A stretch of DNA of 64,000 nt. Origin: Minisyncoccota bacterium. Its GTDB lineage: Bacteria; Patescibacteriota; Minisyncoccia; Phycocordibacterales; Phycocordibacteraceae. The notes under the pieces are model-generated. The model searched no databases. It was not told where the DNA came from and worked only from the letters and a program-made list of their open reading frames with translations. The position numbers and the translations under genes are program-made. The stretch covers positions 684-64,683 of the forward strand of contig JBAYHD010000002.1 in the NCBI GenBank assembly GCA_041666305.1, given 5' to 3'. Below are positions 9,733 to 54,380 of this stretch, piece by piece; position 1 is the stretch's first letter; each line of letters starts with the position of its first letter.

Positions 9733-9743
9733 GGGGCTGTGGC

Positions 9744-9873
9744 CCGGTAGAACAACATAGCATTGCTCATTGTGTCTAGCGTTAAATATACCTTTGACTT
9801 TCTATGTTTTTATCGGTCTCGAACCTTATTATTCGATTTGAGCGTAGACACGATGCTATGTTGTTCTAACCGG
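9744..9873. mobile_element. structured palindromic repeat element (MITE/Correia-like), copy 1 of 4
   Basis: TIRs CCGGTAGAACAACATAGCAT... / ...ATGCTATGTTGTTCTAACCGG; begins 12 nt after the mnmA stop; same family at 22006, 54208, 56994. Confidence 0.6.
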
Positions 9874-9891
9874 GTGGTATATTATTACCGC

Positions 9892-12786: not shown

Positions 12787-13451
12787 ATGTAAAAATAGAT
12801 CCGTCATGGGCGAGGCACTTGAAGGGCGAATTTGAAAAGGCTTATTTTGAAGAGCTGACGAGATTCGTGAAGAATGAATACAAAAACGGCGCCGTGTACC
12901 CAGCGCCGAAGAATATTTTTCGTGCATTCGACCTGTGCCCGTTCGAAAAAGTGAAAGTGGTTATCCTCGGACAGGACCCGTACCACGGCGTTCGTCAGGC
13001 GAACGGCCTCGCGTTCGCCGTGGAGAGCACCGAGAAAATTCCACCGTCGCTTCAAAATATTTTTAAAGAAATTGAGAGCGATCTTCACGGGCCGCTTGTG
13101 CATGCAGACGGCGACCTCTCGCGCTGGGCGAAACAGGGCGTGTTGCTCCTCAATGCAACACTCACCGTGCGAGCCGGCATAGCCGGCTCGCACCAGGAGA
13201 AGGGGTGGGAGCAATTTACCGACGCTGTCATCAAAGCGCTTTCGGAGGAACACGAACATCTCGTTTTTATGCTCTGGGGCAATTATGCGAAGGCGAAGGG
13301 CGCACACATCGACCGCAGTAAGCACCTCGTGCTTGAAGCTCCGCATCCCTCGCCATTCTCCGCCGCCTCCGGCTTTTTCGGCTGTAAGCACTTCTCTAAA
13401 GCAAATGACTACCTCGTCGCTCACAACGAAACCCCGATAGACTGGTTGTGA
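12783..13451 (+). CDS. ung: uracil-DNA glycosylase (family 1)
   Basis: [19 protein letters not shown] motifs; full length 222 aa. Confidence 0.85.
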   Translation: MNVKIDPSWARHLKGEFEKAYFEELTRFVKNEYKNGAVYPAPKNIFRAFDLCPFEKVKVVILGQDPYHGVRQANGLAFAVESTEKIPPSLQNIFKEIESDLHGPLVHADGDLSRWAKQGVLLLNATLTVRAGIAGSHQEKGWEQFTDAVIKALSEEHEHLVFMLWGNYAKAKGAHIDRSKHLVLEAPHPSPFSAASGFFGCKHFSKANDYLVAHNETPIDWL

Positions 13452-14029: not shown

Positions 14030-14374
14030 GACGGAGATTTAACACGATGGGCCGAGCAGGGCGTATTGCTCCTCAATGCCACGCTCACCGTGCGAGCCGG
14101 CATAGCCGGCTCGCACCAGGAGAAGGGGTGGGAACAATTCACCGATGCCGTTATCAAGGCACTCTCAGAAGAGCGCGAGCATCTCGTTTTCATGCTCTGG
14201 GGCAATTATGCGAAGGCGAAGGGCGCACACATCGACCGCAGTAAGCACCTCGTGCTTGAAGCTCCGCACCCCTCGCCATTCTCCGCCGCATCCGGCTTTT
14301 TCGGGTGCAAACATTTCAGCCGTGCGAACGAGTATCTTATTTCCCACAACGAAACCCCCATCGACTGGCTCTAG
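14030..14374 (+). pseudogene. orphan duplicate of the ung 3' half (about 115 codons, no proper start)
   Basis: aligns to ung 13107-13451 at roughly 90% nt identity with mostly synonymous differences (e.g. gacctctcgcgc vs gatttaacacga both DL(S/T)R); opens directly after the stop of the 13493 gene in the same frame. Confidence 0.7.
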
Positions 14375-21995: not shown

Positions 21996-22005
21996 CCCAG
22001 TTGAC

Positions 22006-22135
22006 CCGGTAGAACAACATGGCATCGTGTCTTTTGCTCCCAACAATGCAATGTCAACAAAGGCTTGTTGCTCCGGAAATTTTGATGGATAAATGGACCA
22101 TGACACAAGGAGCAATGCCATGTTGTTCTCACCGG
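22006..22135. mobile_element. structured palindromic repeat element, copy 2 of 4
   Basis: TIRs CCGGTAGAACAACATGGCAT / ATGCCATGTTGTTCTCACCGG; flanked by perfect direct repeat GTTGAC (22000-22005 and 22136-22141). Confidence 0.65.
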
Positions 22136-22197
22136 GTTGACGGCTTTTCGGATACCTGCTAGATTGATGTGGTAACTGCACTGGTAATGAATAGCAA

Positions 22198-23412: not shown

Positions 23413-24024
23413 ATGAAAACCGGACCACGATACAAAATAGCGAAGCGCCTCGGCGCGACCGTCTTTGAGAAAGCGCAGACCCAAAAGTTTGCGATTTCCG
23501 CCGAGCGCTCTGCGAAGAACAAGCGCCGCGGGCGCGGTCGCCAGAGCGAGTACTCCAAGCAAATGCTTGAGAAGCAAAAGGTGCGCGTGACCTACGGCCT
23601 TCCTGAGCGCCAGTTCCGCAGCTATGTGAACAAGGCGCTTGAGGCACACAACATGGCTCCGGTGGAGCGCCTGCACGAGCTCCTTGAGCTCCGTTTGGAC
23701 AACGTCATCTGGCGCCTCGGCCTCGCATCCACGCGCCGCGGCGCACGCCAGATGGTGGCGCACGGCCATGTGATGGTGGACGGCAAGAAGAGCCGCGTGC
23801 CGTCGCAAATGCTTTCCGTCGGAAGCAAAATCGCCGTGCGCGAGGGGTCCAAGGAGCACGGCGTGCTCGTGGGCTTCGCGGAGAAATTCGCGGAGCGTCC
23901 GCTTCCGTCCTGGCTCGTCTGGGACGCGAAGAAGATGGAGGGCTCCGTGAAGGAACGGCCGACGGCCGCTTCAGCGGATCCGGCGGGCGATCTGGTCGCC
24001 GTGCTTTCGTTCTACACGCGATAA
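23413..24024 (+). CDS. rpsD: 30S ribosomal protein S4
   Basis: N-terminal RYKIAKRLG and S4 domain. Confidence 0.9.
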   Translation: MKTGPRYKIAKRLGATVFEKAQTQKFAISAERSAKNKRRGRGRQSEYSKQMLEKQKVRVTYGLPERQFRSYVNKALEAHNMAPVERLHELLELRLDNVIWRLGLASTRRGARQMVAHGHVMVDGKKSRVPSQMLSVGSKIAVREGSKEHGVLVGFAEKFAERPLPSWLVWDAKKMEGSVKERPTAASADPAGDLVAVLSFYTR

Positions 24025-24194
24025 TTGTGCGCTTTATAAACAACTAATATATGGAAAACGAAGCGAAAAAGTTTCAGATGCAAGGCGCGGGATTGCGCGC
24101 GACGGAGGCGTACCTAAGTGGTACGACGACGGCGCACGCTGGGACCCGCAACGCAGCAGCTGGAGTTTTTAGCTCGTTTAACAACGATTGAGTT

Positions 24195-25142
24195 ATGGAA
24201 TACCATATTACACTTCCCAGCAAACCTCGCATCGTTTCTGAAGAAGGACTGCAGGGTGTTTATGAAATAGATTCGCTGTACCCGGGCTACGGCCACACGC
24301 TCGGCAATTCTCTGCGCCGTATCATTCTTTCCTCGCTCCCCGGCGCGGCCGTCACGCAGGTGAAGATAGAAGGCGTTCCGCACGAGTTCGCCACCATTGA
24401 TGGAATGCGCGAGACCGTTATGGAACTTCTCTTGAACCTCAAGCGCGTGCACTTCGTCCTTCACGGCGATGAACCGCAAACCATTTCGCTCACCGCGAAA
24501 GGCACGAAGGAAATTACCGCCGCTGATTTCAAGCTCCCGAGCCAGGTTGAGATCATGAATCCGGAACAGCACATCTGCGATCTTTCCGGAAAGGGAACAC
24601 TCGAACTCGAAGCCACTATTGAACGCGGACTCGGCTACGTCTCCCGCGAAGTGCTCACGAAAGACAAAGTAGACATCGGCACCATCGCGCTTGATGCCAC
24701 CTTCACGCCTATCCGCCGTGTGAACTATGAAGTGGAGAACATGCGCGTCGGCGATCGCACCGATTTCAACCGCCTGCGCATCCTCATCGAGACCAACGGC
24801 ACCATCGCTCCGCGCGCCGCACTTGAGTCGAGCATTGAAACGATGATCCATCAGCTGAAGGCCATCATCGGCTTCCAGGAGAGCGCACCGGCCGCGTCCT
24901 CTGGCGCATCCGCCGAGAAGGAGGAAAGCGGCACGACCAGCGCGTCAAAGATAAAGATCGCTGACCTCGCTCTCACTCCGCGCGTCACGGCTTCCATTGA
25001 AGGCGCCGGCATCAAGAGCGCTGCGGGTCTCGCACGCAAGACGGCATCAGCCCTCAAAGAATTGGACGGCATCGGCGAAAAGGCGATTGAGGAAATTTCC
25101 GAAGCGCTTGCCGGTCACGGCCTCACGCTGAAGGCGGAATAA
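24195..25142 (+). CDS. rpoA: DNA-directed RNA polymerase alpha subunit
   Basis: N-terminal domain motifs (GHTLGNSLRRIILSS), C-terminal domain present. Confidence 0.9.
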   Translation: MEYHITLPSKPRIVSEEGLQGVYEIDSLYPGYGHTLGNSLRRIILSSLPGAAVTQVKIEGVPHEFATIDGMRETVMELLLNLKRVHFVLHGDEPQTISLTAKGTKEITAADFKLPSQVEIMNPEQHICDLSGKGTLELEATIERGLGYVSREVLTKDKVDIGTIALDATFTPIRRVNYEVENMRVGDRTDFNRLRILIETNGTIAPRAALESSIETMIHQLKAIIGFQESAPAASSGASAEKEESGTTSASKIKIADLALTPRVTASIEGAGIKSAAGLARKTASALKELDGIGEKAIEEISEALAGHGLTLKAE

Positions 25143-25147
25143 CTACC

Positions 25148-25501
25148 ATGGCATTTACTAAAAAAGCACAGACCTTCCATCGCGAGACCGGCCAGCGCTC
25201 GGCGCTCATCCGTTCGCTCGCGCGTTCCCTCGTGCTTGAAGAGCGTATTTCCACCACGGAAGCAAAAGCGAAAGCACTTCGTCCGTACATTGAGCGACTC
25301 GTCACTTACGCAAAGACGGGCACGCTCGCCAGCCGCCGGCTTGCCATTTCCCGTATCCACGACAAGGAGGCGGTGAAGAAGCTTTTCGGCACCATCGGTC
25401 CGCGCTATGCAGACCGAAAGGGCGGCTACACGCGCATCGTGAAGCGCACGAAGCGTGGCTTCAACGATGCGCGCAAGCTTGCGTACATCATGTTCGTCTA
25501 G
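25148..25501 (+). CDS. rplQ: 50S ribosomal protein L17
   Basis: conserved L17 sequence; follows rpoA. Confidence 0.9.
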   Translation: MAFTKKAQTFHRETGQRSALIRSLARSLVLEERISTTEAKAKALRPYIERLVTYAKTGTLASRRLAISRIHDKEAVKKLFGTIGPRYADRKGGYTRIVKRTKRGFNDARKLAYIMFV

Positions 25502-25505
25502 CTTG

Positions 25506-25586
25506 CCCCGTTAGAGACTATCCTGTACAACAATATGACCACTGCAATGACCACAAACATTTCCGAAAACACCGTCTCTAATGGGG
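25506..25586 (+). promoter_or_regulatory. long-range hairpin in rplM-rpsI leader (candidate r-protein autoregulatory structure)
   Basis: CCCCGTTAGAGAC (25506-25518) pairs with GTCTCTAATGGGG (25574-25586), one G-U. Confidence 0.3.
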
Positions 25587-25602
25587 TATTCACCAATTAA
25601 AT

Positions 25603-25977
25603 ATGGCAACTTCCAACATTAAACCGGCACCGAGCACCTACACCATCGACGCGACCGACCGCACCCTTGGCCGTGTGTGCTCCGAGGCGGCTTCGGCACT
25701 GCTCGGCAAGAAGTCCGTGCACTTCGCCAAGAATCAGACGATTCCGGTTAAGGTCACCGTGAAGAATGCGGGCAAGATGCACCTTCCCAAGCGCCGTGTG
25801 GAAGGGAAGGTCTACACCCGCTACACCGGTCACCCGGGAGGCCTCTACTTCACCACGATGCAAGAGATGATAACGAAGAAGGGCATTGGCGAGGTCGTCA
25901 AAAAGACCGTGGACGGTATGATACCGCGCAACAAACTCCGTGCACCGCGTATGAAGAATCTCATCGTCACCGAATAA
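25603..25977 (+). CDS. rplM: 50S ribosomal protein L13
   Basis: conserved L13 sequence. Confidence 0.9.
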   Translation: MATSNIKPAPSTYTIDATDRTLGRVCSEAASALLGKKSVHFAKNQTIPVKVTVKNAGKMHLPKRRVEGKVYTRYTGHPGGLYFTTMQEMITKKGIGEVVKKTVDGMIPRNKLRAPRMKNLIVTE

Positions 25978-25981
25978 TTTT

Positions 25982-26380
25982 ATGGCATCAAAAACTTTCA
26001 TCACTGCAGTCGGGCGCCGCAAGACCGCTATCGCAAGCGTGCGTATGGTAAAGGCTCCGAAATCGAGTCTCATGGTCAACGGTATGACCCCGAAGGAATA
26101 TTTCAAGACTGATCTCCGCGCACTTGTCGCCGTTGAGGCACTCGCCAAGGCAGAGAGCGCTGAGAATTACGAAGTCCACGCGCACGTGGAGGGCGGCGGC
26201 ATCGCCGGTCAGGCAGACGCCGTGCGTCATGCCATCTCCCGCGCCATCACCAAGGCAGAGCCGAAGACTCGCGCGGTCCTCAAGACGGCAGGCTTCATGA
26301 AGCGCGACCCTCGCGCCAAAGAGCGCAAGAAGCCAGGCCTCAAAAAAGCGAGAAAGGCTCCTCAGTGGTCCAAACGATAA
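25982..26380 (+). CDS. rpsI: 30S ribosomal protein S9
   Basis: GRRKTAIA...KAPQWSKR. Confidence 0.9.
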   Translation: MASKTFITAVGRRKTAIASVRMVKAPKSSLMVNGMTPKEYFKTDLRALVAVEALAKAESAENYEVHAHVEGGGIAGQADAVRHAISRAITKAEPKTRAVLKTAGFMKRDPRAKERKKPGLKKARKAPQWSKR

Positions 26381-26429: not shown

Positions 26430-26610
26430 CTCAGTTGTCCACATACATTCTTACAAAAACAATTGACAAAGAAAAAATCTGGTATACTAAAAATACCTCG
26501 CAAGAGGAGGCAAGGGAATGGTGAGTAGTTGATTATTCAATAACGAAAAGCGAAGAGCTCTAGTCGTGGGTAATCGTCTAAACACGATTTCCTGCGAGTA
26601 GGGCTCTTTT

Positions 26611-26696
26611 TGGTGACGTGGCAGAGCGGTCTATTGCACTCTTCTTAGGAGAGAGCGGTCTGTGTAGGGCCCGCGGGTTCGAATCCCGCCGTCACC
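26611..26696 (+). tRNA. tRNA-Leu (anticodon TAG), long variable arm
   Basis: acceptor GGTGACG/CGTCACC, anticodon loop cuUAGga, T-arm GGTTCGAATCC; CCA not encoded; TGGTATACT extended -10 about 125 nt upstream. Confidence 0.8.
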
Positions 26697-26739
26697 GCTA
26701 GTTATACACAGGGCTTGATTTACGCATCTTGCCGGTGGT

Positions 26740-26790
26740 ACTATATATAGGCCCTACACAGGCCTGACCTCGCGTCAGAGTTCGTATCCC
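26740..26790 (+). other. tRNA 3'-end-like fragment (T-arm plus CCCGCC) without foldable 5' half
   Basis: GAGTTCGTATCCCGCC resembles GGGTTCGAATCCCGCC of the adjacent tRNA-Leu; contains reverse complement of the tRNA variable-arm segment; shares 11-mer ACCTCGCGTCA with the island repeats. Confidence 0.25.
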
Positions 26791-26885
26791 GCCCTGAGGT
26801 TCTTTTCGAGATTTAGAAGCCTCGAAAGTCGAATCAAGTCTTCTAATTCCGGATTTCTTTATTCGGAATGGGATATGAAACGAGA

Positions 26886-26915
26886 AGCCCGCGCAAGCGG
26901 GTTTTCTCGTTTTTA
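26886..26915 (+). terminator. rho-independent terminator
   Basis: gcccgcgcaagcgggttttctcgttttt. Confidence 0.5.
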
Positions 26916-26944
26916 AGAGCAAGAAACGGGGACACCCACCATTA

Positions 26945-26990
26945 ATTTCCAAACAAAAACCTCGCGTCATGCCCCGGGCGACAGGGATCC
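26945..26990 (+). repeat. island direct repeat (a): AATTTCCAAACAAAAACCTCGCGTCATGCCCCGGGCGACAGGGATCC
   Basis: five same-orientation copies at 26945, 27538, 27681, 29505, 30172. Confidence 0.65.
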
Positions 26991-27000
26991 TGATGGGGAG

Positions 27001-27519
27001 TTATTCCAGATTGTTCAAATAGCACCTAATGTCGGCACTCGACTTCAAGACAATTACTTTATCTTTGTGCTCATTAATAAATAGCATCAGTTTCGGTTTG
27101 GTTCTAAATTGGCGACGAATAATCTCGAGGAAGAAGGCAATCTCGTGTCGGATATTAAGCTCCGGATGTCTCTCCGACGGATTGAATATGCGCTGAGCGT
27201 GATTAAACAATCTGCGCCAAAGCGGAATGTCGAGAAAAATAATGACGTCGGCCCTTTTTGCGATTTCTGGTTGCACAGAACGCGTGTATAAACCGTCGGA
27301 GACCCACGAGTCTGCAGCAATCGCAGTTGCCGTCTTTTGCCTAACGAAGGTTCGCACTCGGTCGCGCTCTTCAATGGGGGCACCATCCTTCATCTGATTT
27401 CCGCCCGCCTCGAACCAGAATCGGTCGAGGTGGATGTGTGGTATAGATAATTTTTCACTAATCGCTCGCGCGAGAGTAGATTTCCCGCTCGCGGGTAACC
27501 CAACAATGCTTATACGCAT
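27001..27519 (-). CDS. P-loop NTPase / nucleotide kinase-like protein (FlaR/adenylate-kinase-like)
   Basis: Walker A GLPASGKST close to N-terminus (start taken at MRISIVG); bracketed by direct repeats (a) and (b); only minus-strand gene in island. Confidence 0.55.
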   Translation of the reverse strand: MRISIVGLPASGKSTLARAISEKLSIPHIHLDRFWFEAGGNQMKDGAPIEERDRVRTFVRQKTATAIAADSWVSDGLYTRSVQPEIAKRADVIIFLDIPLWRRLFNHAQRIFNPSERHPELNIRHEIAFFLEIIRRQFRTKPKLMLFINEHKDKVIVLKSSADIRCYLNNLE

Positions 27520-27537
27520 TGCGTAAGAATACATTAA

Positions 27538-27580
27538 ATAATTCCCAAACAAAAACCTCGCGTCATGCCCCGGCGACCTT
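27538..27580 (+). repeat. island direct repeat (b)
   Basis: ATTCCCAAACAAAAACCTCGCGTCATGCCCCGGCGACC. Confidence 0.65.
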
Positions 27581-27601
27581 CCGTCTCAGTGAAGGTAGTA
27601 T

Positions 27602-27637
27602 GTTCGTTAACTCTAACGGTCGTATCAATTAACGAAC
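27602..27637. repeat. conserved hairpin GTTCGTTAA-N18-TTAACGAAC with AACGGTCGT loop core (copy A)
   Basis: perfect 9-bp stem; near-identical second copy at 35800-35835. Confidence 0.55.
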
Positions 27638-27680
27638 AGCAGATTGCCTACGCTGCGCAAGGTTCGACCTTTCTCAAAAT

Positions 27681-27726
27681 AATTTCCAAACAAAAACCTC
27701 GCGTCATGTCCCCGGCGACAGGGGTC
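27681..27726 (+). repeat. island direct repeat (c)
   Basis: AATTTCCAAACAAAAACCTCGCGTCATGTCCCCGGCGACAGGGG. Confidence 0.65.
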
Positions 27727-27824
27727 TAGAGCAGGAGTATTTGACTGAATGACTTAAGAGCATATGATTCCAGTCAGACACACAAGTAGTTCCCACCAAT
27801 GCTTGCAGACAGAAGGAGTTCGTC

Positions 27825-28313
27825 ATGAACAGTTCTATTAGTCCAAAAAAGCTTCGTCATGCCATAAATCAGTATTTCGATCAGACCCCGGCCACTGAGG
27901 TCGTGCGACGTGCAGAAGAACTGAAGCCGCAGGAGATGAAGTCTAGGGAAATGGTACTGTTTGGACCTCCCGGCCTCGTCGCCAAGGTATACAAAACGTT
28001 CAAGATCGACTGCGACGGAAACGTGATTTTCGACGGCATCCGCATTGCCGGATTGAGCATCAAGCTTCCGAAGGGAAGGATCAATGATATACACTGCCGT
28101 TTGCGCCTGCACCACCCGGAGACGGGAGACTTGTTCGAGACGACTGGCTACGTTTCAGACGCGTTCGTGTACGAGGTGTTGCAGTGTTGGGATGGCAAAG
28201 ATACCGTGACCATCGCCGGCAAGAAGATGGTGCATCAACCAGTTCGTGGCAATTCTGTGCCCCAGCAGTATTACTTGCTGGTTGAGGTCATAGAGGATAC
28301 ATCGCCGTTCTAA
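27825..28313 (+). CDS. hypothetical protein
   Basis: ORF with protein-like composition; no family recognised. Confidence 0.4.
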   Translation: MNSSISPKKLRHAINQYFDQTPATEVVRRAEELKPQEMKSREMVLFGPPGLVAKVYKTFKIDCDGNVIFDGIRIAGLSIKLPKGRINDIHCRLRLHHPETGDLFETTGYVSDAFVYEVLQCWDGKDTVTIAGKKMVHQPVRGNSVPQQYYLLVEVIEDTSPF

Positions 28314-28450
28314 AGCCGTTCGCAGAAGTCCGTTCTGCGAACGGCTTTTGCTTTTTGAGGTTCAACCTTGCTAAAAAACAGTCGATTCTCGAACTGTGAT
28401 ATATTCGGCTCTAGAAAGTCCCGCAACCAATAGAAAAGGAGGTAGTTAGT

Positions 28451-28849
28451 ATGGCAACGAGAGAAGCGGCATCTGGCCGCATCCAGATACTCAAGACACC
28501 AGCTTGGGACGCTCCACTTGAGGCCCGCGGAGCGTTTGTGATGAAAGCAGCGCTTCCGTGTTATCCGTATGTCGGGTATCCGTCCGGCGTAGTGAGGGAC
28601 GTCGTGACTCGCAGGGAAATGGAGATCAAGAAAATAGGCGTCATCGTGCCGCAGGACAAAGCATTACAGGTCCTCTGGCAGAATAATCCGGTGGCGGCCA
28701 CATGGTGGATAGACCGCGGCTTCCCGAAACGCAGAGGATGCTTTTTCTTCACTGAAGGCGAGTTCACCATCGTCAGCGGCGTCCCCGATGATCCGGTATG
28801 GGTTTTTGAGAACATACGGGTTGGGCACTGGCGCCAAATGCTCCCCTGA
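28451..28849 (+). CDS. hypothetical protein
   Basis: ORF preceded by aaaggaggtag RBS; no family recognised. Confidence 0.45.
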   Translation: MATREAASGRIQILKTPAWDAPLEARGAFVMKAALPCYPYVGYPSGVVRDVVTRREMEIKKIGVIVPQDKALQVLWQNNPVAATWWIDRGFPKRRGCFFFTEGEFTIVSGVPDDPVWVFENIRVGHWRQMLP

Positions 28850-29023
28850 AAGCGACGTGCGACGAGACGGAAAGGGTCTTCCTTTCCGTCTTTTTTGTTT
28901 TTAGCCCTCTCCACGTCTGATGCAGAAACAGTTGACAATAATATATTCTTGTGCTATATATGGAGGCAAGACTGGCGACTCAGGCTTGTCGCGTTCATTC
29001 AATCAATCAAGGGAGAAAAAATT

Positions 29024-29455
29024 ATGGTAAATCCTGACGCATTCTTCAGGAATTCTTTCGCTCAATTCAGAATTACGCTCCGCAATCTGCTCGGGAGGCA
29101 TGGGGTCTTAACCAATCCCGGCTCGAACGATGATGAAATAGTAGCTGGCTTCGAGGAGCTTCTTGCGCGGCGGCAAACCGAATTGGACGAAGGCAATCTG
29201 ATCTTCATCACCGAGGCACTGATGATGTTCCATATGCGGATTGCCTACAACACACCTTCGTTTGCAGTAAATTTTGTTTGCGCAAAAGCAACAGACGAAA
29301 TGACACAAGAAGCTCTTCGCAAACTCTTGCGTGTGAGTCTTCAAGACCCAAGATTCCGAGAGCGATTCAACGAGCATTTCTCGAAACACCCAATGCAAGA
29401 ATTCCGTGAGGAAGGATGGAAATGGTTATGTGAGATCTTAGCTTGGGAAACGTGA
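29024..29455 (+). CDS. hypothetical protein
   Basis: start at MVNPDAFF after gggagaaaaaatt RBS-like stretch (track ORF begins 28895); followed by terminator. Confidence 0.35.
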   Translation: MVNPDAFFRNSFAQFRITLRNLLGRHGVLTNPGSNDDEIVAGFEELLARRQTELDEGNLIFITEALMMFHMRIAYNTPSFAVNFVCAKATDEMTQEALRKLLRVSLQDPRFRERFNEHFSKHPMQEFREEGWKWLCEILAWET

Positions 29456-29500
29456 GTTCCGCCCTCAACGAAAACCGTTGGAGGGCGGTTTTCATTTTTA
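29455..29500 (+). terminator. rho-independent terminator
   Basis: ccgccctcaacgaaaaccgttggagggcgg then TTTTCATTTTT. Confidence 0.65.
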
Positions 29501-29504
29501 GGCT

Positions 29505-29546
29505 CAACACAAAAAACTCGCGTCATTCCCCCGGCGACAGGGATCC
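29505..29546 (+). repeat. island direct repeat (d)
   Basis: CAACACAAAAAACTCGCGTCATTCCCCCGGCGACAGGGATCC immediately after terminator. Confidence 0.6.
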
Positions 29547-29654
29547 TCAGTCGAGTAGAGGGGCTTGACTTACATACTGTTTCGTAGTATCGTACGCACA
29601 GAGGTTTCTTCTCTACCTTAAAGAGACGCCCTTTTCCAGAATGAAGGAGAGATC

Positions 29655-30116
29655 ATGCATCAGTATGTCACCTGCACTAAATGCAACGGGTCCGGCAGAG
29701 TAAGGAGAACCAGATGGTTCGGGACGAAAGACTGTCCCTCCTGCGACGGCATAGGGAAAGTTCCCAAAGCCGTTACCAAGGCAACGTCGGTAAGAAGGAC
29801 CGAAGAACGGGCCGTAACCCACTCCGCTCCGGCAAATGACGACGGCGATATCATCGCGGGCGTGGCGCTCATGGTTGCGGCTTTAGACCGCGGGAATACC
29901 ATCGCGGTTGCGCAGCCCGAAGAAGCTTTCAAAGGTGGCGGCGGCGAAATGGGCGGTGGCGGAGCTAGCGACTCATGGGATAAACCCGAGGAGCGCGCGG
30001 CAGAACCGGAGCCTGTTGCGGAAGTCGTTACGACGTTCGAATCAAGCGAACCCGCGTCAGAATCGGCCGCTTCAGATTCTTCAAGTTCATCGGACTCGGG
30101 ATCAAGCGACACGTGA
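29655..30116 (+). CDS. zinc-ribbon protein (CxxC x2, DnaJ-finger-like CxxCxGxG) with acidic Ser-rich disordered tail
   Basis: CTKCNGSGRV...CPSCDGIGKV; aaggagagatc RBS; C-terminal SDSSSSSDSGSSDT. Confidence 0.45.
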   Translation: MHQYVTCTKCNGSGRVRRTRWFGTKDCPSCDGIGKVPKAVTKATSVRRTEERAVTHSAPANDDGDIIAGVALMVAALDRGNTIAVAQPEEAFKGGGGEMGGGGASDSWDKPEERAAEPEPVAEVVTTFESSEPASESAASDSSSSSDSGSSDT

Positions 30117-30120
30117 ACGG

Positions 30121-30172
30121 CCGCCTCAGCAGTAACGGGAAAACCGTGCTTGCTGAGGCGGTTTTCTTTTTG
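30121..30172 (+). terminator. rho-independent terminator
   Basis: ccgcctcagc...gctgaggcgg then TTTTCTTTTT. Confidence 0.65.
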
Positions 30173-30215
30173 TCCCAATTTCCAAACAAAAACCTCACTT
30201 CATGCTCTGGCGATA
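30172..30215 (+). repeat. island direct repeat (e), most diverged
   Basis: AATTTCCAAACAAAAACCTCACTTCATGCTCTGGCGATATTCC. Confidence 0.5.
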
Positions 30216-30365
30216 TTCCTCAACCCATCTCTGTTGAAATTAGACTTCAACAAGGGGTGGGAATGATTATCCACAGGCCTCCCAGGACACTTGACAAATC
30301 ATGTTCGCTATGCTAGCCTGTACACAGGTCAAACCAGCTTTCCAACCATCTCTGCGGAGGTAGCG

Positions 30366-30494
30366 ATGAAATTGCTTAAGCAAGTGTGGGAAAAGCTCAT
30401 GAAATGGATCGACGGTGACGAAGTCCCAAACAGCACCATGACGCCGCAACAGGTCGCAGATCTGTGCGAGTCGGGTTTCGAAACATGGGATTAA
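30366..30494 (+). CDS. small hypothetical protein (43 aa)
   Basis: MKLLKQVWEKLMKWIDGDEV...; ggaggtagcg RBS before ATG 30366. Confidence 0.25.
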   Translation: MKLLKQVWEKLMKWIDGDEVPNSTMTPQQVADLCESGFETWD

Positions 30495-30562
30495 CGGACC
30501 GGAGTCCACGAAGACGGCACAGGATGCTCACAAGATCCCGTGCCGTTTTTATATAATGATGT

Positions 30563-30591
30563 TTGACCTGACGTAGGGACAGGCATATAGT
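30563..30591 (+). promoter_or_regulatory. sigma70-type promoter TTGACC -17- TATAGT
   Basis: -35 30563-30568, -10 30586-30591, gene start 30629. Confidence 0.45.
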
Positions 30592-30628
30592 CCGTGCGGG
30601 TAGGTCTTCAATTTTTGGGAGCACGGAA

Positions 30629-30886
30629 ATGAAAGACAATGCGTGGCACCAGCATCCGAAAAATCCGGAAGAAATGATGTACGGAGGTCTCCTCGAAGAC
30701 AAGGATGAGCTCGAAGAGGGAGACGCATCACCCAATCCAATTACGAAGAAATGGGAGAAGATACCTCCGGTCCACATTGGAGCTCGTCTTCCTCAAGGCC
30801 ACAAGACGATGTTTGTTCGTCCTGCCGAGGTGATTCCTACGTTCGTAACACCGGACGTGCTGGATTCCTCCGAAGGCTGGATATAG
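30629..30886 (+). CDS. hypothetical protein
   Basis: ORF after promoter and gggagcacggaaATG. Confidence 0.35.
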   Translation: MKDNAWHQHPKNPEEMMYGGLLEDKDELEEGDASPNPITKKWEKIPPVHIGARLPQGHKTMFVRPAEVIPTFVTPDVLDSSEGWI

Positions 30887-30897
30887 TGAGGTGACCC

Positions 30898-31251
30898 ATG
30901 GCGTATGTATCAGGAAAAATATTCAGAGACGACATCGTGGCGCTCGAGGCGGAATATCTCGAAGCCATGATAGAAAAAACAGTACGGTCGGGAATACGGC
31001 TCACCAGGAAGAAATGGATTTGGATAGAACTGGTGCCTCAAGCGCTTGAAAATAGAGCTGTACCCATCATCCGGCAGATGTTGGCGAGTATCAATCCGGA
31101 AATGTTTTGGAATGTCCGGAAAATGGACGAGCGAGTCATTTGGATGATCTACTGGCGCCTCCGAACTGAGCCGCTGAATATTCACATGTACCTTCTCGAA
31201 CTTCTTGTTGAACTCGACAAGAACCCGCCCTTTGCCGATATTTTTGCCTAA
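30898..31251 (+). CDS. hypothetical protein
   Basis: ORF; no family recognised. Confidence 0.4.
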   Translation: MAYVSGKIFRDDIVALEAEYLEAMIEKTVRSGIRLTRKKWIWIELVPQALENRAVPIIRQMLASINPEMFWNVRKMDERVIWMIYWRLRTEPLNIHMYLLELLVELDKNPPFADIFA

Positions 31252-31316
31252 ACGCCGCCCGAAGGGCGGCGGTTGTTTTGCTCCATTCTCCATGCTGTAT
31301 AATCAACCGCATACCT

Positions 31317-31793
31317 ATGGAAGGAATAAAAAACAACGCACCGGAAAGTCCTGAAGATAAGGGAGAGCAATTGAGCGGGAAGGAAAAGTTTGAGCAAATT
31401 TTGGCGCTCTTCGGCACCGACACCGCTCGCGAAAACTTTGTAGAGACATGCCGGCTGTACATAGAGGCTCGCCAGAGAGCTGTTCGTGAGTCATACGCTC
31501 CCGAACCCACCGTTCGTCATAGAGCTGTCATGTCGAGCCCGAAGCAGGCCGTCATCCATAATAAGATCATGGACACCATGACGCGCCTCGCGAATCAGGC
31601 AGAAAATGTTTCCCCGCTCCAACGCAAGATTTTAATAGAAATGCATGACCGCGACATCACTGCCGAGATCATTCGAGAATACGTCAATGCAGTCCATAGG
31701 GTAAAGAAAGTTGATGAGGATGAAGAAAACGGGGAACGGAAGAAAGGAATGTCCGACACCGCCTACTACCACTCGCTCGGGAAAGAGCACTAA
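31317..31793 (+). CDS. hypothetical protein
   Basis: start at MEGIKNN (track 31278); no family recognised. Confidence 0.4.
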   Translation: MEGIKNNAPESPEDKGEQLSGKEKFEQILALFGTDTARENFVETCRLYIEARQRAVRESYAPEPTVRHRAVMSSPKQAVIHNKIMDTMTRLANQAENVSPLQRKILIEMHDRDITAEIIREYVNAVHRVKKVDEDEENGERKKGMSDTAYYHSLGKEH

Positions 31794-31851
31794 TCAACTA
31801 TAAAAATAGGCGCCTCAGGACAGGCGCCTATTAAATGATGAGGGTTCCTTT

Positions 31852-32556
31852 TTAGTTATTCTTTGGAACCTTGAGAGAACCTTCGGTTTGAAAATACATC
31901 AAGTCGAATTGCTTGAGTGCCGGGCCCAGCTTCTTGACTTCAGTAATACTTGGGAAGCGCATGGCCTCGTTTCGGAATCTCTCTATGGCGAGTTTCCGGC
32001 GAAGTGCAAACCTCGGTACCGCCGAACGAAGCACCATAACCGCACGTATGAACGACGTTGCCATCAGTGCGTATGCTTGGCTGAACCAGTCATTCTTGCC
32101 TTCTGCTGATTTGGCAAGTTCCCGATACAAGCTTATGCCGATGTCCGCAATCTGGTGCGCCCCGCGCATCTGATGACGATAGTGACTTGCTTCCGGAAAG
32201 AACGCCACGTATTGCAGACTTATGTCGGCGACATCCGGAACAAGACCCGGTTCGACATTAGCCGCTCCGACAAGACGGCCGTAAAAGTCAAAAGCTGCCA
32301 ATTGTTCAAACAGCATCGATCGACCCATGAAGCGATACAACATCGCCGCGAGATAGTCCCGCACCATATCGTCGATAGGTATCTTCGTTTGAGCGCACGC
32401 CTCGGATACCAGCAGGTACCATTGGTACGCCGCCGATTCCGCACGTACGAACCCTAATTTGTTCAAGGCGGAATATTTCGCATCCGCTTTTACATCCTCC
32501 GGTTTTGCCGTGATAACCATTTTCACGTCCATGGCAACTCTCCTCAGGTTAAACAT
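31852..32556 (-). CDS. hypothetical protein
   Basis: minus-strand ORF divergent from grpE; no family recognised. Confidence 0.4.
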   Translation of the reverse strand: MFNLRRVAMDVKMVITAKPEDVKADAKYSALNKLGFVRAESAAYQWYLLVSEACAQTKIPIDDMVRDYLAAMLYRFMGRSMLFEQLAAFDFYGRLVGAANVEPGLVPDVADISLQYVAFFPEASHYRHQMRGAHQIADIGISLYRELAKSAEGKNDWFSQAYALMATSFIRAVMVLRSAVPRFALRRKLAIERFRNEAMRFPSITEVKKLGPALKQFDLMYFQTEGSLKVPKNN

Positions 32557-33371: not shown

Positions 33372-35282
33372 ATGTCTAAAATACTTGGCATTGATTTGGG
33401 CACTACCTATTCCGCGATGGCAATCGTGGAAGGCGGCGAGCCGCGTGTGCTGGAAAACGCCGAGGGTTCGCGCACAACGCCGTCCATCGTGGCGGTCGGC
33501 AAGAGCGGCGAACGAATTGTGGGTACGCTTGCGAAGCGCCAGTCGGTGACCAATCCCTTGAACACCATTTTCCAGATCAAACGATTCATAGGCCACTCAT
33601 ATGACGAGCCGGCGGTGCAGAAAGACAAGGCGTCCGTGCCATTTGAAATGCGCAAGGCGGAGAACGGCGGCATCGAAGTGAAAATGACGGAGAAGTGGTA
33701 CCGTCCGGAGGAAATTTCCGCGATGATACTCGGCAAACTCAAAGCCGATGCGGAAGCAAAACTCGGCGAGAAGATAACCGAAGCGGTCATCACCGTGCCG
33801 GCATACTTCAACGACGACCAGCGCAGCGCGACAAAAGCTGCAGGTGAAATTGCCGGTCTCACGGTCAAGCGCATCATCAACGAACCGACGGCGGCCGCGC
33901 TCGCGTATGGATTTAATAAAAAGAAAGATGAGAAAATAGCGGTCTTCGACTTCGGCGGCGGCACGTTTGATATCTCCGTGCTTGAAGTGGGCGGGGACGT
34001 CATCGAAGTGAAGAGCACCGACGGCGACGCACACTTGGGCGGCAAGGATATTGACCAGACAATCATCAATTGGCTCGCGGAAGAATTCCGAAAGGAGAGC
34101 GGGATCGATGTGCTCAAAGACGCACTTGCGCGACAGCGGCTGGACGAAGCCGCCGAGAAAGCGAAGATAGAACTCTCCAGCGCGATGGAGACGGAAATAA
34201 ACATCCCATTCCTCACGTCGGACGCTTCCGGCCCGCGCCACCTGCTCATCAAGATGACCCGCGCCAAGCTTGAAGACATCGCGGGAGAATTCATCCAACG
34301 CGCGATGGATATCACCAAGCGCGCGATGGAAGCATCGCCCTTCAAGATTCCCGACATCAACGAAGTCATCCTTGTGGGCGGTCAGACACGCATGCCGGCG
34401 ATACAAGCGGCCGTGGAGAAATTCTTCGGCAAGAAGCCGAATATGACCGTGAATCCGGATGAAGTCGTTGCCATTGGCGCGGCTATCCAGGCGGGCATTC
34501 TGCAGGGCGACGTGAAGGACATTCTGCTTGTGGACGTGATTCCGCTCTCGCTCTCCATCGAGACGATGGGCGGCGTCGCGACTAAACTCGTGGAGCGCAA
34601 TACGGCAATTCCTACGAGCCGTTCGCAAACTTTCTCCACTGCTGCCGATAATCAGCCATCGGTAGAAATTCACGTGACCCAGGGCGAGCGCGCGATGAGC
34701 GCCGACAACAAATCGCTCGGCAAATTTATGCTCGACGGCATTCCACCGGCTCCCCGCGGTATGCCGCAAGTGGAAGTGAAGTTCGACATTGATGCATCCG
34801 GCATCCTCACGGTCACCGCCAAAGAAAAGACCACCGGCAAGGAGCAGTCCATAAAGATCTCCGGCTCCACCGGACTTTCGCAAGCGGACATCGACAAAAT
34901 GAAAGCCGACGCCGAAGCACACACGGCGGACGATGAGAAGCGCAAAGAACTCGTGGAAGCGCGCAATATCGCTGACCAAGCAGTGTATGCGGCGGAGAAA
35001 GCGGTCAAAGATAACGGCGAAAAAGCCGGCGCGGAAGTGGTGAAGGACGTGCAAGACAAGATAGAAGCGTTGAAAGTCGCGCGCAATAGCGAAGACGCTG
35101 GCACTATCAAGAGTGCAACCGAAGCGCTTTCATCCGCACTTATGAAGATCGGCGAGGCGATGATGAAAAATAGTGAGCAGCAAGCAGGAGCAGGAGGCGG
35201 TAATCCGCCGCCGTCAGACGGCGGCGGCCAGGGTCCCGAGACTCCTCCCGCCACCGACGCCGAGTTCAAAGAGAAGCCGTAA
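33372..35282 (+). CDS. dnaK: molecular chaperone DnaK (Hsp70)
   Basis: [16 protein letters not shown], full-length Hsp70. Confidence 0.95.
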
Positions 35283-35789: not shown

Positions 35790-35799
35790 TCTCGTGCAT

Positions 35800-35835
35800 G
35801 TTCGTTAAGTCCAACGGTCGTGTGACTTAACGAAC
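35800..35835. repeat. conserved hairpin GTTCGTTAAGTC-N12-GACTTAACGAAC with AACGGTCGT loop core (copy B)
   Basis: perfect 12-bp stem; same family as 27602-27637. Confidence 0.55.
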
Positions 35836-35856
35836 ATTATTCATCGTATAACCCAC

Positions 35857-35894
35857 TGTCTCAATTTTTGTCCTATAGGACAAAAATTGAGACA
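35857..35894. promoter_or_regulatory. perfect 17-bp-stem palindrome TGTCTCAATTTTTGTCC-TATA-GGACAAAAATTGAGACA upstream of dnaJ
   Basis: perfect dyad read directly; about 100 nt upstream of the dnaJ promoter. Confidence 0.55.
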
Positions 35895-52992: not shown

Positions 52993-53048
52993 TATGAGAT
53001 TGTACAGATTACTAGCAACCGCAGTTGAGGCGAATAATCATACGGGGT

Positions 53049-53771
53049 ATGCCGTTCTCCATTAAGACCGACGCATACGAAGGACCGTTCGAGGTTCTGC
53101 TCGACCTCATTGAAGCGCGCAAACTCCTGGTCAACGACCTCACGCTCGCGAATATCACCGAGGATTACATCCAGCACGTGCGTGCGCAGGAAGCATTTCC
53201 GGTCGAAGAAACCGCGAATTTCATACAGATAGCCGCAACGCTTCTTCTCATCAAATCCAAATCGCTCATCCCCGATCTCGCGCTGACCGAGGACGAGAAT
53301 GCGGACGTGGAAGATTTGAAGCGCCGGCTCGCGGCGTACGAAAAAGTGCGCGAAGCGGCGCGCGAACTCTCGCGCATATACGGACGGACGGTAATGGCGG
53401 AAGAAGGTCAGAGGATGCCTGAAGTCGTCTTTGCGCCGTCTAAAGATCTCTCGGTAAAAGCACTCGCCGATGCGCTCGCGCGCGTGCTTGCCGCGCGCGA
53501 GGAGGTGGAAGAACTTCCAGAAGCGCGCGTGAAGCCGCTCGTGACCATTGAAGAAATGATGGATCGACTCGCGAAGCGCGTACAAAGCGCGATGACGCTT
53601 TCCTTCAAAGATTTTGCCGGCGGCCAAAAAGAAAAGATCGAGGTTATTGTCTCTTTCCTGGCTCTTCTAGAACTGGTGAAGCAAGGCGCAGTTGCTGCCG
53701 AACAACGCGATACCTACGGCGACATTCGCATCAGCCACACCGCCTCCACTGTCGTTCCGCGCTATGGATAA
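53049..53771 (+). CDS. scpA: segregation and condensation protein A
   Basis: YEGPFEVLLDLIEARKL N-terminal kleisin motif; start ATG 53049. Confidence 0.8.
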   Translation: MPFSIKTDAYEGPFEVLLDLIEARKLLVNDLTLANITEDYIQHVRAQEAFPVEETANFIQIAATLLLIKSKSLIPDLALTEDENADVEDLKRRLAAYEKVREAARELSRIYGRTVMAEEGQRMPEVVFAPSKDLSVKALADALARVLAAREEVEELPEARVKPLVTIEEMMDRLAKRVQSAMTLSFKDFAGGQKEKIEVIVSFLALLELVKQGAVAAEQRDTYGDIRISHTASTVVPRYG

Positions 53772-53772
53772 T

Positions 53773-54174: not shown

Positions 54175-54207
54175 CACTCTAATTACATCCCCAGAAGAAG
54201 CCGTTGC

Positions 54208-54340: not shown

Positions 54341-54380
54341 GGCGTTGCCGTAGAGGTGCGGCACGACTATACTGAGACCA

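What the first reader, a model, noticed from the sequence alone, without database searches (positions are those of the whole stretch)
26700..31300. tRNA-Leu-adjacent island of ORFans punctuated by five ~45-bp direct repeats
Immediately downstream of tRNA-Leu(TAG) lies a ~4.6-kb stretch of small unknown genes. They include a P-loop kinase-like protein on the opposite strand, a zinc-ribbon protein with an acidic tail, and several 40-170-aa ORFs. Five same-orientation copies of AATTTCCAAACAAAAACCTCGCGTCATGCCCCGGCGACAGGGATCC sit at 26945, 27538, 27681, 29505 and 30172. Three copies (26945, 29505, 30172) directly follow a rho-independent terminator. Two copies bracket the single minus-strand gene 27001-27519. 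Spacing is irregular (about 100-1800 bp) and the repeats have no dyad symmetry, so they are neither CRISPR repeats nor integron attC sites. The repeat has no obvious -35/-10 either. The pattern (tRNA + tRNA-3'-like fragment + reiterated att-like repeats + cargo ORFans) suggests serial site-specific integrations at the tRNA-Leu locus. Alternatively it could be a cassette array recognised by an unlinked recombinase.
Basis: partly seen in the sequence, partly recalled or inferred. Interest (0 to 1): 0.8.

Follow-up and report, generated by a model that had tools for sequence, protein, structure and literature searches.

The report
Portable upstream repeat in variable island
A conserved ~55-base sequence sits in one orientation in front of unrelated small genes, only inside one variable stretch between rpsI and grpE-dnaK in a group of ultra-small (CPR) bacteria. 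It looks like a reusable promoter-upstream module rather than scars of integrations at the neighbouring tRNA gene.

Summary
The five same-strand repeats are real: 26944, 27540, 27681, 29500 and 30177, with 0 expected by chance. The tRNA-integration reading is not supported.

- **Context.** The window is a Paceibacteria/Kaiserbacteria-like chromosome. The island fills the rpsI-to-grpE/dnaK interval, which varies in all relatives fetched (1.1-6.7 kb, patchwork of small genes).
- **Distribution.** The repeat (R, ~55 nt) recurs in four other related genomes: 16 copies in all, 15 counting near-identical L252/L254 once. All are on the rpsI-to-dnaK strand and all lie inside this interval.
- **Not tRNA-linked.** Three relatives covering the rpsI side, two of them with R, have no tRNA there. 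R has no similarity to tRNA-Leu. No recombinase was found.
- **Anatomy.** R has no dyad symmetry, no conserved RNA fold and no Rfam match. It follows a terminator or a short palindrome. In 9 of 15 copies it ends 15-35 nt before a sigma-70-like -35 (76 nt for a tenth).
- **Behaviour.** It stays with the downstream gene while the upstream neighbour changes. It is also present or absent as a discrete ~50-nt block at orthologous sites.

Best reading (about 0.4): a portable cis-regulatory head of accessory-gene modules, whose direct copies also aid module gain and loss. A cassette system with an unlinked recombinase is not excluded.

The parts
26612..26698 (+). tRNA-Leu(tag). It lies inside the variable interval, and no tRNA is found at this locus in L243, L244 or L245.
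   Evidence: ARAGORN; Rfam
26745..26915 (+). Putative structured small RNA with its own terminator (26884-26913). It contains a tRNA T-arm-like 14-mer, a 15-nt complement of the tRNA variable arm, and an 11-mer shared with the repeat.
   Evidence: Fold z = -4.9; repeats; shuffle tests; terminator
26942..27001 (+). Repeat R copy 1. It comes after a terminator and abuts the 3' end of the minus-strand kinase gene. No plus-strand promoter follows it.
27001..27519 (-). P-loop kinase ('DNA topology modulation protein'-like), bracketed by R copies 1 and 2.
   Evidence: Homologues in L253 and L255 are not flanked by R.
27538..27597 (+). Repeat R copy 2. Its 3' third has diverged. It overlaps the kinase upstream region on the opposite strand.
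27600..27638 (+). Hairpin TGTTCGTTAA-N19-TTAACGAACA. It is the only feature between copies 2 and 3. A second copy lies upstream of dnaJ at 35798-35836.
   Evidence: family D16
27657..27671 (+). 'Alpha' palindrome GCAAGGTTCGACCTT, 9 nt upstream of copy 3. The same unit precedes an R copy in L244.
27679..27738 (+). Repeat R copy 3. Its GGCGAC block ends 21 nt before the -35 of the promoter at 27741-27768, which serves the 162-aa gene.
27825..29455 (+). Three small genes (162, 132 and 143 aa) of unknown function. Terminators follow at 28312-28348, 28864-28892 and 29470-29493.
   Evidence: The 143-aa protein is 33% identical to the L244 101-aa protein.
29501..29556 (+). Repeat R copy 4. It directly follows a terminator, and its GGCGAC block ends 26 nt before the -35 of the promoter at 29565-29593. 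It is orthologous to the copies upstream of the same gene in L245 and L252.
29655..30116 (+). Zinc-ribbon protein (DnaJ CXXCXGXG-type finger with an acidic tail). Orthologues occur in L245, L251, L252 and L254.
30177..30222 (+). Repeat R copy 5, the most diverged. Relative to the orthologous post-terminator site in L245 and L252 it is a discrete ~47-nt insertion.
30291..32532 (.). Right-hand part of the island, which has no R copies. It holds genes of 42, 85, 117 and 158 aa (plus strand) and 226 aa (minus strand). These are shared in patchwork and in a different order with L243, L244, L245, L249 and L251.

Best explanation
R is a lineage-specific, ~55-bp DNA-level cis element. Its consensus is AATTTCCAAACAAAAACCTCGCGTCATGCCCCGGCGACAGGGATCCTCAG.

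It forms the 5' 'head' of independently transcribed accessory-gene modules. Each module runs: optional palindrome, R, purine-rich stretch, sigma-70-type promoter, gene(s), terminator. These modules sit in the flexible rpsI-to-grpE interval of a Kaiserbacteria-like clade.

**Inferred function.** R is a docking site for a sequence-specific DNA-binding protein, which puts otherwise unrelated island genes under common control. That protein could be a transcription factor. It could also be an alternative-sigma holoenzyme, because the blocks AAC and CGAC keep a 16-18-nt spacing.

**Inferred spread.** R spreads by copy-paste between promoter heads, through gene conversion or recombination across the short shared flanks. 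As a set of direct repeats it also gives the homology over which modules are gained, lost and reshuffled.

**Shown:** the anatomy, orientation, locus restriction, linkage to the downstream gene, and presence/absence polymorphism.
**Inferred:** protein binding, regulatory effect and mode of spread.
For: 1. **Orientation and location.** There are 16 copies in five genomes (window x5, L244 x2, L245 x2, L246 x5, L252 x1, L254 x1), or 15 counting near-identical L252/L254 once. All are on the rpsI-to-dnaK strand and inside the rpsI-grpE interval. None lies in the other ~58 kb of the window or in the relatives' flanks.
2. **Position relative to promoters.** In 9 of 15 copies the GGCGAC block ends 15-35 nt before the -35 of a good TTGACA-N16/17-TAnnnT promoter, and 76 nt before it for copy 5.
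3. **R stays with the downstream gene.** The zinc-ribbon gene has R upstream in the window, L245 and L252, although the upstream neighbour differs in each. DNA homology starts at R or at its palindrome.
4. **R heads non-homologous genes**.
5. **It is a primary-sequence element.** There is no fold signal (z = +0.5 to -1.7). RNAalifold predicts only 3-8 pairs; none shows covariation within the repeat, and a single compensatory pair lies in the upstream mini-hairpin. There is no Rfam hit, and frame-breaking indels rule out coding.
6. **Conservation is blockwise.** CCAAAC, CATG and GGCGAC are near-invariant, and AACCTCGC is well conserved. Indels fall only in homopolymer runs.
7. **R comes and goes as a unit between the same flanks.** Palindrome + R + -35 occurs in L245, L252 and L246, against palindrome + -35 at L244 5915 and 7643. 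Copy 5 is a 47-nt insertion relative to L245/L252. The zinc-ribbon promoter in L251 lacks R.
8. **Paralogous copies share genome-specific variants.** Examples are ..TCGG.. in all four full L246 copies, GACATGRATCC in L245/L252, and CGCCCATG in L244. This fits gene conversion or co-evolution with a trans factor.
Against: - No binding protein, transcription start or expression data exist, so function is pure inference.
- Five of 15 copies have no plus-strand promoter close behind them: copies 1 and 2, and L246 copies 1, 2 and 4. Two of these precede the 3' end of a minus-strand gene.
- The distance to the -35 is not fixed and not clearly phased.
- Spacing between conserved blocks varies by 1-4 nt, which is awkward for a rigid operator.
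- R itself holds no sigma-70 promoter.
- The match to ECF or sigma-28 consensus is weak. No alternative sigma gene was found in the window; one lies beside dnaJ in L245 only, and its own upstream region lacks the motif.
- Overall within-genome similarity of copies is not significantly higher than between genomes (permutation p = 0.07).
- Only ~10% of each genome could be inspected, so locus restriction is not proven genome-wide.
Confidence: 0.4

Rival explanations
1. R, perhaps together with its upstream palindrome, is the recombination site of an integron-like cassette system. An unlinked site-specific recombinase excises and inserts repeat-bounded modules, and here the modules carry their own promoters and terminators.
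For: - The copies are direct repeats, clustered only in a hypervariable interval.
- A minus-strand gene is bracketed by two same-orientation copies in two genomes: the window kinase and the L246 120-aa gene. This is expected for cassette borders and odd for promoter elements.
- Gene-less ~140-nt intervals between two copies occur in both the window and L246.
- L245 has palindrome+R, a 124-aa gene, then palindrome+R, where L252 has a single palindrome+R.
- Island genes occur in patchwork and in a changed order among relatives.
- Copies share genome-specific variants, as chromosomal attC families are known to do (own knowledge, not tested here).
Against: - There is no dyad symmetry or foldable site.
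- No recombinase was found in the 64 kb by the tests run.
- R is gained or lost alone, without cargo.
- Homology blocks keep R with the downstream gene and do not split it at a fixed crossover.
- The right half of the island and three relatives (L243, L248, L249) vary just as much without any R.
- The two population-level contigs available are identical across the island.
Confidence: 0.2
2. R is a selfish or neutral miniature insertion element, or a passively converted sequence block, with no function of its own. It proliferates locally in intergenic DNA next to terminators and promoters.
For: - R shows discrete ~47-57-nt presence/absence at three kinds of orthologous or equivalent sites.
- One copy is truncated (L246 at 2169-2193) and some are decayed (copy 5).
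- The window also holds a second, dispersed repeat family, so small repeats do spread in this genome.
Against: - R has no terminal inverted repeats and no clear target-site duplication.
- All 15 copies share one orientation, and none lies outside one interval.
- Conservation between species is blockwise, at 56-91% pairwise identity. This is similar to the alignable coding DNA of shared island modules (66-89%), while other intergenic DNA of the interval cannot be aligned.
- There are no copies in viral contigs, phages or plasmids.
Confidence: 0.17
3. R acts at the RNA level. It would be an unstructured C-rich, G-poor leader, intercistronic or 3'-UTR element transcribed by read-through or from an upstream start, for example a Rho-loading, RNase or protein-binding site.
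For: - Several copies follow a gene with no intrinsic terminator in between: copy 3, L244 copy 1, L245 copy 1 and L246 copy 3. They would be transcribed by read-through.
- The first ~32 nt are C-rich and G-poor and are predicted to be unstructured.
- Orientation always matches the direction of transcription.
Against: - At least five copies lie directly after strong intrinsic terminators and before the next promoter. In the simplest model they are not transcribed.
- R travels with the downstream gene, not the upstream one.
- There is no Rfam family and no covariation.
Confidence: 0.1
4. One reading: the repeats are att scars of serial integrations of small elements into the tRNA-Leu gene.
For: - A tRNA gene lies next to the island, followed by a 13/14 T-arm-like fragment.
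- An 11-mer is shared between that fragment and R (p about 0.0015).
Against: - R does not resemble the tRNA.
- R arrays occur without any tRNA in L244 and L245.
- No integrase was found.
- The modules are 0.14-1.8 kb and carry no mobility genes.
- R can be present or absent on its own.
Confidence: 0.03

Closest known systems
Putative mobile promoters (PMPs; Matus-Garcia, Nijveen & van Passel 2012, PMC3488235)
   Same: Both are conserved 50-100-nt non-coding sequences reused upstream of non-homologous genes, within and between genomes. PMPs were proposed as recyclable regulatory DNA.
   Different: - PMPs are an operational class defined at >=80% identity and found genome-wide.
- R copies are 56-91% identical.
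- R is confined to one flexible interval and always has one orientation.
- R lies just upstream of the sigma-70-like promoter and does not contain it.
Chromosomal integron cassette arrays / CALINs (species-specific attC families such as Vibrio VCRs)
   Same: - Same-orientation, species-typical repeats punctuate an array of small genes, mostly of unknown function.
- Content varies between relatives.
   Different: - R has no imperfect-palindrome attC structure.
- No IntI or attI was seen.
- Modules have their own promoters and terminators.
- R sits at the 5' side of the gene it travels with.
- R can come and go without cargo.
Modular intergenic repeat mosaics (BOX elements of Streptococcus pneumoniae; BIMEs/REPs of enterobacteria) - comparison from own knowledge
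   Same: Intergenic regions are built from a small vocabulary of short reusable blocks in varying combinations. Here the blocks are a palindrome, R, a G-rich box and hairpins.
   Different: - Those families are dispersed over the chromosome.
- They are palindromic or strongly folding.
- They occur in both orientations.
- R is unstructured, oriented and locus-bound.
JUMPStart/ops element upstream of accessory operons (RfaH system) - comparison from own knowledge
   Same: A ~40-nt conserved, orientation-dependent sequence shared by the upstream regions of unrelated accessory gene clusters.
   Different: - ops lies in the transcribed leader, downstream of the promoter.
- It acts through a known NusG paralogue.
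- R lies upstream of the -35, and no partner protein is known.

Membership tests
tRNA-targeted integrative island (att = 3' end of the tRNA) | The direct repeat equals the 3' part of the target tRNA gene | tested here: not met
   Local alignment of R against tRNA-Leu has shuffle p = 0.96, and against tRNA-Tyr p = 0.98.
tRNA-targeted integrative island (att = 3' end of the tRNA) | An integrase gene lies at one end of the island | tested here: not met
   No recombinase Pfam hit among called genes at 23.8-36.4 kb, among island proteins, or among 10 other ORFs. Not every ORF of the window was profiled.
tRNA-targeted integrative island (att = 3' end of the tRNA) | The repeats are tied to the tRNA locus in relatives | tested here: not met
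   L244 and L245 carry R copies in the same interval without any tRNA there.
Integron / CALIN attC array | Each site is an imperfect inverted repeat (R''-L''...L'-R') that folds as a hairpin | tested here: not met
   No dyad was found. Fold z-scores are +0.5 to -1.7, and the consensus has only 3-8 weak pairs on either strand.
Integron / CALIN attC array | Cassettes are mostly promoterless and co-oriented | tested here: not met
   Modules have their own sigma-70-like promoters and intrinsic terminators. One module gene is reversed.
Integron / CALIN attC array | IntI integrase with attI and Pc is present (absent in CALINs) | tested here: inconclusive
   None was found in the 64 kb. The rest of the genome was not available.
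CRISPR array | 28-37-nt repeats are regularly spaced by similar-sized spacers | tested here: not met
   Spacings are 596, 141, 1819 and 677 nt, and the intervals hold genes.
MITE | Terminal inverted repeats and a target-site duplication | tested here: not met
   No inverted arms were found. The junctions of the copy-5 insertion are ambiguous, at most a CCC/ACCC overlap.
MITE | Copies are dispersed over the genome | tested here: not met
   All copies lie in one interval, with 0 in the remaining ~58 kb of the window and in the relatives' flanks. Whole genomes were not scanned.
Putative mobile promoter (PMP) | A 50-100-nt upstream sequence shared by non-homologous genes | tested here: met
   The ~55-nt core lies upstream of unrelated genes in five genomes.
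Putative mobile promoter (PMP) | >=80% identity between copies, as in the published definition | tested here: inconclusive
   Pairwise identity is 56-91%. Only some pairs reach 80%.
Structured cis-regulatory RNA / riboswitch | A conserved secondary structure with covariation, or an Rfam match | tested here: not met
   Rfam at gathering and E-value thresholds gives nothing on the repeats. Covariation within the repeat is nil; the only compensatory pair lies in the upstream mini-hairpin.
Alternative-sigma (ECF or sigma-28-like) promoter | Two conserved blocks at promoter-like spacing, with a cognate sigma factor | tested here: inconclusive
   AAC...CGAC spacing is 16-18 nt in 13 of 14 full copies, counted on the alignment. 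However the spacer itself is also conserved and the consensus match is weak. No sigma gene was found in the window, and there are no extra sites in the window.

The most novel reading that the evidence does not exclude
The palindrome+R units are the recombination sites of a previously undescribed, integron-like gene-cassette system in CPR/Patescibacteria. In it, promoter-bearing mini-cassettes are exchanged at a fixed chromosomal hotspot (rpsI-grpE) by an unlinked recombinase. The R sites would be unstructured, unlike attC.
Probability: 0.15. Interest if true: 0.85.

Novelty: new variant of a known kind. Interest (0 to 1): 0.45.

Why it matters
CPR/Patescibacteria have tiny genomes, almost no experimentally known regulation, and many genes of unknown function.

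This finding points to a conserved flexible hotspot between rpsI and grpE-dnaK. There, small accessory genes are swapped as self-contained units, each with a head, promoter, gene and terminator. One head element is reused across species.

- **If R is a protein-binding regulatory site,** it defines a first candidate regulon for these orphan genes and gives a handle, by DNA-affinity methods, for finding its regulator.
- **If R is a recombination site,** it would be a new cassette system.

Either way, the R profile is a cheap marker for locating such islands in metagenomes.

Tried and rejected
1. **Wasted scans.** I scanned genome contigs and metagenome contigs with a 16-nt pattern. Extension showed that all 240 returned loci were chance single matches.
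2. **Other collections.** There are no R copies in IMG/VR with a 20/21-nt pattern. There are no meaningful matches in phages or plasmids.
3. **RNA motif idea rejected**.
4. **Small-peptide idea rejected.** Indels break every reading frame.
5. **tRNA-derived att idea rejected**.
6. **Strain-level cassette polymorphism not seen.** L241 is identical to the window, and L242 is identical across the island. L246/L247 and L249/L250 differ only by small indels.
7. **Kinase as an R-bounded mobile unit rejected.** Its 70-71% homologues in L253 and L255 lie in other contexts without R.
8. **ECF autoregulation not supported.** The upstream region of the L245 sigma gene lacks the motif, and there is no sigma homologue in the window.
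9. **Helical phasing of R relative to the -35.** There is a hint (gaps of 15/16, 25/26 and 34/35), but two copies are off-phase and the test is post hoc, so I make no claim from it.
10. **Structure prediction failed.** Single-sequence AlphaFold models of the 162-aa and 132-aa proteins had pLDDT 40 and 33, so no fold search was run.
11. **No defence-system match.** PADLOC gave no convincing hit.
12. **Within-genome clustering of copies** by overall identity was not significant (p = 0.07).

Full report
**1. Observation**

The five repeats exist. The repeat finder places them at 26944, 27540, 27681, 29500 and 30177, all on the + strand (families D2/D3).
- The 22-nt core gives 4 hits against 0.00 expected.
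- A profile built from all copies recovers the five, with E-values from 1e-10 to 1e-19, and nothing else in the window.

The surrounding details also check out:
- tRNA-Leu(tag) at 26612-26698;
- the T-arm-like fragment, 13 of 14 positions;
- the bracketed minus-strand kinase at 27001-27519, and the zinc-ribbon protein;
- terminators before copies 1 and 4 and, by eye, before copy 5.

**2. Context**

The window is a bacterial chromosome. The order is rpsD-rpoA-rplQ-rplM-rpsI (23413-26380), then the island, then grpE (to 33283), dnaK (33372-35282) and dnaJ.

The closest DnaK sequences are named Candidatus Paceibacterota, Kaiserbacteria or Parcubacteria, so this is a CPR/Patescibacteria genome. 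L241 is identical to the window. L242 is 99% identical overall and 100% identical across the island.

**3. The interval is a flexible hotspot**

Relatives were fetched through DnaK homologues of 90-93% identity (L243-L250) and through zinc-ribbon protein homologues (L251, L252, L254). In every one that spans it, the rpsI-to-grpE interval is filled with different sets of small genes, 1.1 to 6.7 kb long.

Gene families are shared in patchwork and in changed order:
- zinc-ribbon: window, L245, L251, L252;
- 117 aa: window, L244, L245;
- 158 aa and 226 aa: window, L244, in reversed order;
- DUF4258+DUF2283: L243, L246, L248.

No tRNA lies in this interval in L243, L244 or L245.

**4. The repeat in relatives**

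R occurs in L244 (4731, 5189), L245 (6176, 6722), L246 (147, 709, 1309, a truncated copy at 2169, and 2315), and in L252 (704) and near-identical L254 (~690).
- With the window this makes 16 copies in five genomes, or 15 counting L252/L254 once.
- All are on the strand of rpsI and dnaK, and all lie inside the interval.
- R is absent from L243, L248, L249/L250, L251, L253 and L255.
- R is also absent from all flanking DNA fetched, from IMG/VR, from phage and plasmid collections and from Rfam.

By contrast, a different repeat family in the window is dispersed over 47 kb. Dispersed repeats would therefore have been seen.

**5. Anatomy**

The consensus is AATTTCCAAACAAAAACCTCGCGTCATGCCCCGGCGACAGGGATCCTCAG.
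- The blocks CCAAAC, CATG and GGCGAC are near-invariant and AACCTCGC is well conserved. Indels occur only in the A, C and G runs and between CTCGC and CATG.
- Neither strand has a significant or conserved fold.
- Indels break all reading frames.
- Upstream lies either the previous gene's intrinsic terminator or a short palindrome. The palindrome is either 'alpha' GCAAGGTTCGACCTT or 'beta' CGTAAGGTG-N-CACCTTACG, placed 6-10 nt before R.
- Downstream, in 9 of 15 copies, a good sigma-70-like promoter starts 15-35 nt after GGCGAC (76 nt for copy 5).
- The exceptions are copies 1 and 2 and L246 copies 1, 2 and 4. Copy 1 and L246 copy 1 abut the 3' end of a minus-strand gene, so in two genomes a reversed gene is bracketed by two direct copies.

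**6. R behaves as a module head and as a discrete indel**

- The zinc-ribbon gene is preceded by R in the window, L245 and L252, although the upstream gene differs in each. DNA homology begins at R or its palindrome and ends at the gene's terminator.
- In L251 the same gene and promoter lack R.
- The beta palindrome is followed by R and then the -35 in L245, L252 and L246. At two L244 sites it is followed directly, after 10-17 nt, by the -35.
- Copy 5 is a 47-nt insertion relative to the orthologous post-terminator site of L245/L252.
- L245 has palindrome+R, a 124-aa gene, then palindrome+R, where L252 has one palindrome+R.
- Paralogous copies share genome-specific variants, although overall identity does not cluster significantly by genome (p = 0.07).

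**7.

Integration at the tRNA is not supported.
- R does not resemble the tRNA.
- R arrays exist without a tRNA.
- No recombinase was found.
- R can come and go alone.

The tRNA-like fragment is real. However, it sits in a strongly folding ~170-nt promoter-to-terminator unit (z = -4.9), so it looks like a small RNA rather than an att site. The fallback idea of a cassette array with an unlinked recombinase cannot be excluded.

**8. Mechanism**

My best reading (about 0.4) is that R is a portable cis-regulatory head.
- It would be a protein-binding DNA element placed just upstream of the promoters of accessory-gene modules.
- It would be copied between heads by recombination over the short shared flanks.
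- As direct repeats, the copies would promote module gain and loss.

A sub-variant is that R carries an alternative-sigma promoter, because AAC and CGAC keep a 16-18-nt spacing. The consensus match is weak and no sigma gene was found.

The rivals are:
- an integron-like recombination site (0.2);
- a selfish or neutral mini-insertion (0.17);
- an RNA-level element (0.1);
- tRNA att scars (0.03).

The bracketing of reversed genes and the gene-less R-to-R intervals are the observations that the regulatory reading explains least well.

**9. Comparison with known systems**

R fits the operational class of putative mobile promoters (PMC3488235) best. It differs in being locus-bound, strictly oriented, and upstream of the promoter rather than containing it. 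It fails the structural tests for attC, MITE, CRISPR and riboswitch. I found no description of it in Rfam or in two literature searches.

**10. Cargo**

- The kinase is a widespread 'DNA topology modulation protein'-like P-loop enzyme.
- The zinc-ribbon protein has a DnaJ-type finger and only four homologues.
- The 162-aa protein has 14 related clusters among 1.84 billion.
- The rest match no family in Pfam, PHROGs, NCBIfam or PADLOC.
- Single-sequence structure models were unusable.

**11. Limits**

- Two collection scans were wasted on a pattern that was too short, so there is no global census of R.
- Only about a tenth of each genome was seen.
- There are no expression or population data.

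Noticed in passing
window 9743-9875, 22005-22137, 54207-54343, 56993-57129: Four dispersed + strand copies of a ~135-nt element. Each has conserved ~27-bp terminal inverted repeats (CCCGGTAGRACAACWTGGCAT ... ATGCCAWGTWGTYCTCACCGGG) and a variable ~70-nt interior, and each sits right after a gene's stop codon. RNAalifold gives 32 pairs, 10 of them with compensatory changes, plus one bulged base. There is no Rfam hit. It could be a MITE-, REP- or attC-like long hairpin.
   Followed up: partly
window 26745-26915: A promoter-to-terminator unit downstream of tRNA-Leu that folds strongly (z = -4.9). It is a mosaic of three pieces: a 15-nt complement of the tRNA variable arm, an 11-mer shared with the repeat (ACCTCGCGTCA), and a 13/14 copy of the tRNA T-arm. 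It may be a tRNA-derived small RNA.
   Followed up: partly
window 27600-27638 and 35798-35836; L249 12431-12471 (-): A hairpin or palindrome, TGTTCGTTAA-N19-TTAACGAACA, with copies 87% identical. One lies between repeat copies 2 and 3, one upstream of dnaJ, and one downstream of dnaK in a relative. It could be an operator or a small RNA.
   Followed up: partly
window 35861-35892; L246 about 771-800: A perfect palindrome, CAATTTTTGTCCTATAGGACAAAAATTG. It lies upstream of dnaJ in the window and, in L246, directly after a repeat copy and upstream of a DUF4258 gene. It looks like an operator.
   Followed up: no
L244 5915 and 7643; L245 6155 and 6700; L246 685; L252 680: A 19-bp palindrome, CGTAAGGTG-N-CACCTTACG, with a conserved TAAAYCCG leader. 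It recurs upstream of promoters in the relatives' islands, with or without the repeat between it and the -35. It is probably an operator for a dimeric DNA-binding protein.
   Followed up: partly
L251 265-305 and 945-985; L245 7420-7470; L252 1410-1460; window 30246-30275 (degenerate): A second reusable upstream block, the 'G-box' ACCCACC..CAGAGGGGAGGCGTGGAGGGATTGACA, which abuts or overlaps the -35. In L251 it flanks the zinc-ribbon gene on both sides in place of the repeat.
   Followed up: partly
window 26464-26611: An extended -10 promoter (TTGACA...TGGTATACT) followed by a ~110-nt leader. The leader holds a long hairpin ending in TTTTT just before tRNA-Leu. L245 has a different ~250-nt hairpin-rich non-coding stretch at the same place after rpsI.
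   Followed up: no
window 13107-13406 and 14030-14329: A 300-nt direct duplication at 86% identity, in a lower-GC stretch near a uracil-DNA glycosylase gene and an IMP cyclohydrolase-like gene.
   Followed up: no
window about 53000-54000: Cumulative GC skew rises steadily to about 53-54 kb and then falls. This is a skew switch of the kind seen at a replication terminus.
   Followed up: no
L246 13191-15918: A large serine recombinase (606 aa) plus a DUF3800 protein lie on the minus strand next to or overlapping tyrS in one relative. Fragments similar to its C-terminus appear at the same place in L244, L248 and L249. This may be an integration hotspot near tyrS and tRNA-Tyr.
   Followed up: no
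window 30269-30277 and 26433-26441; L245 about 4469: DnaA-box-like 9-mers occur in the island's intergenic DNA: TTATCCACA (perfect) and TTGTCCACA. One lies at the orthologous post-rpsI position in L245. A single box is within chance expectation.
   Followed up: no
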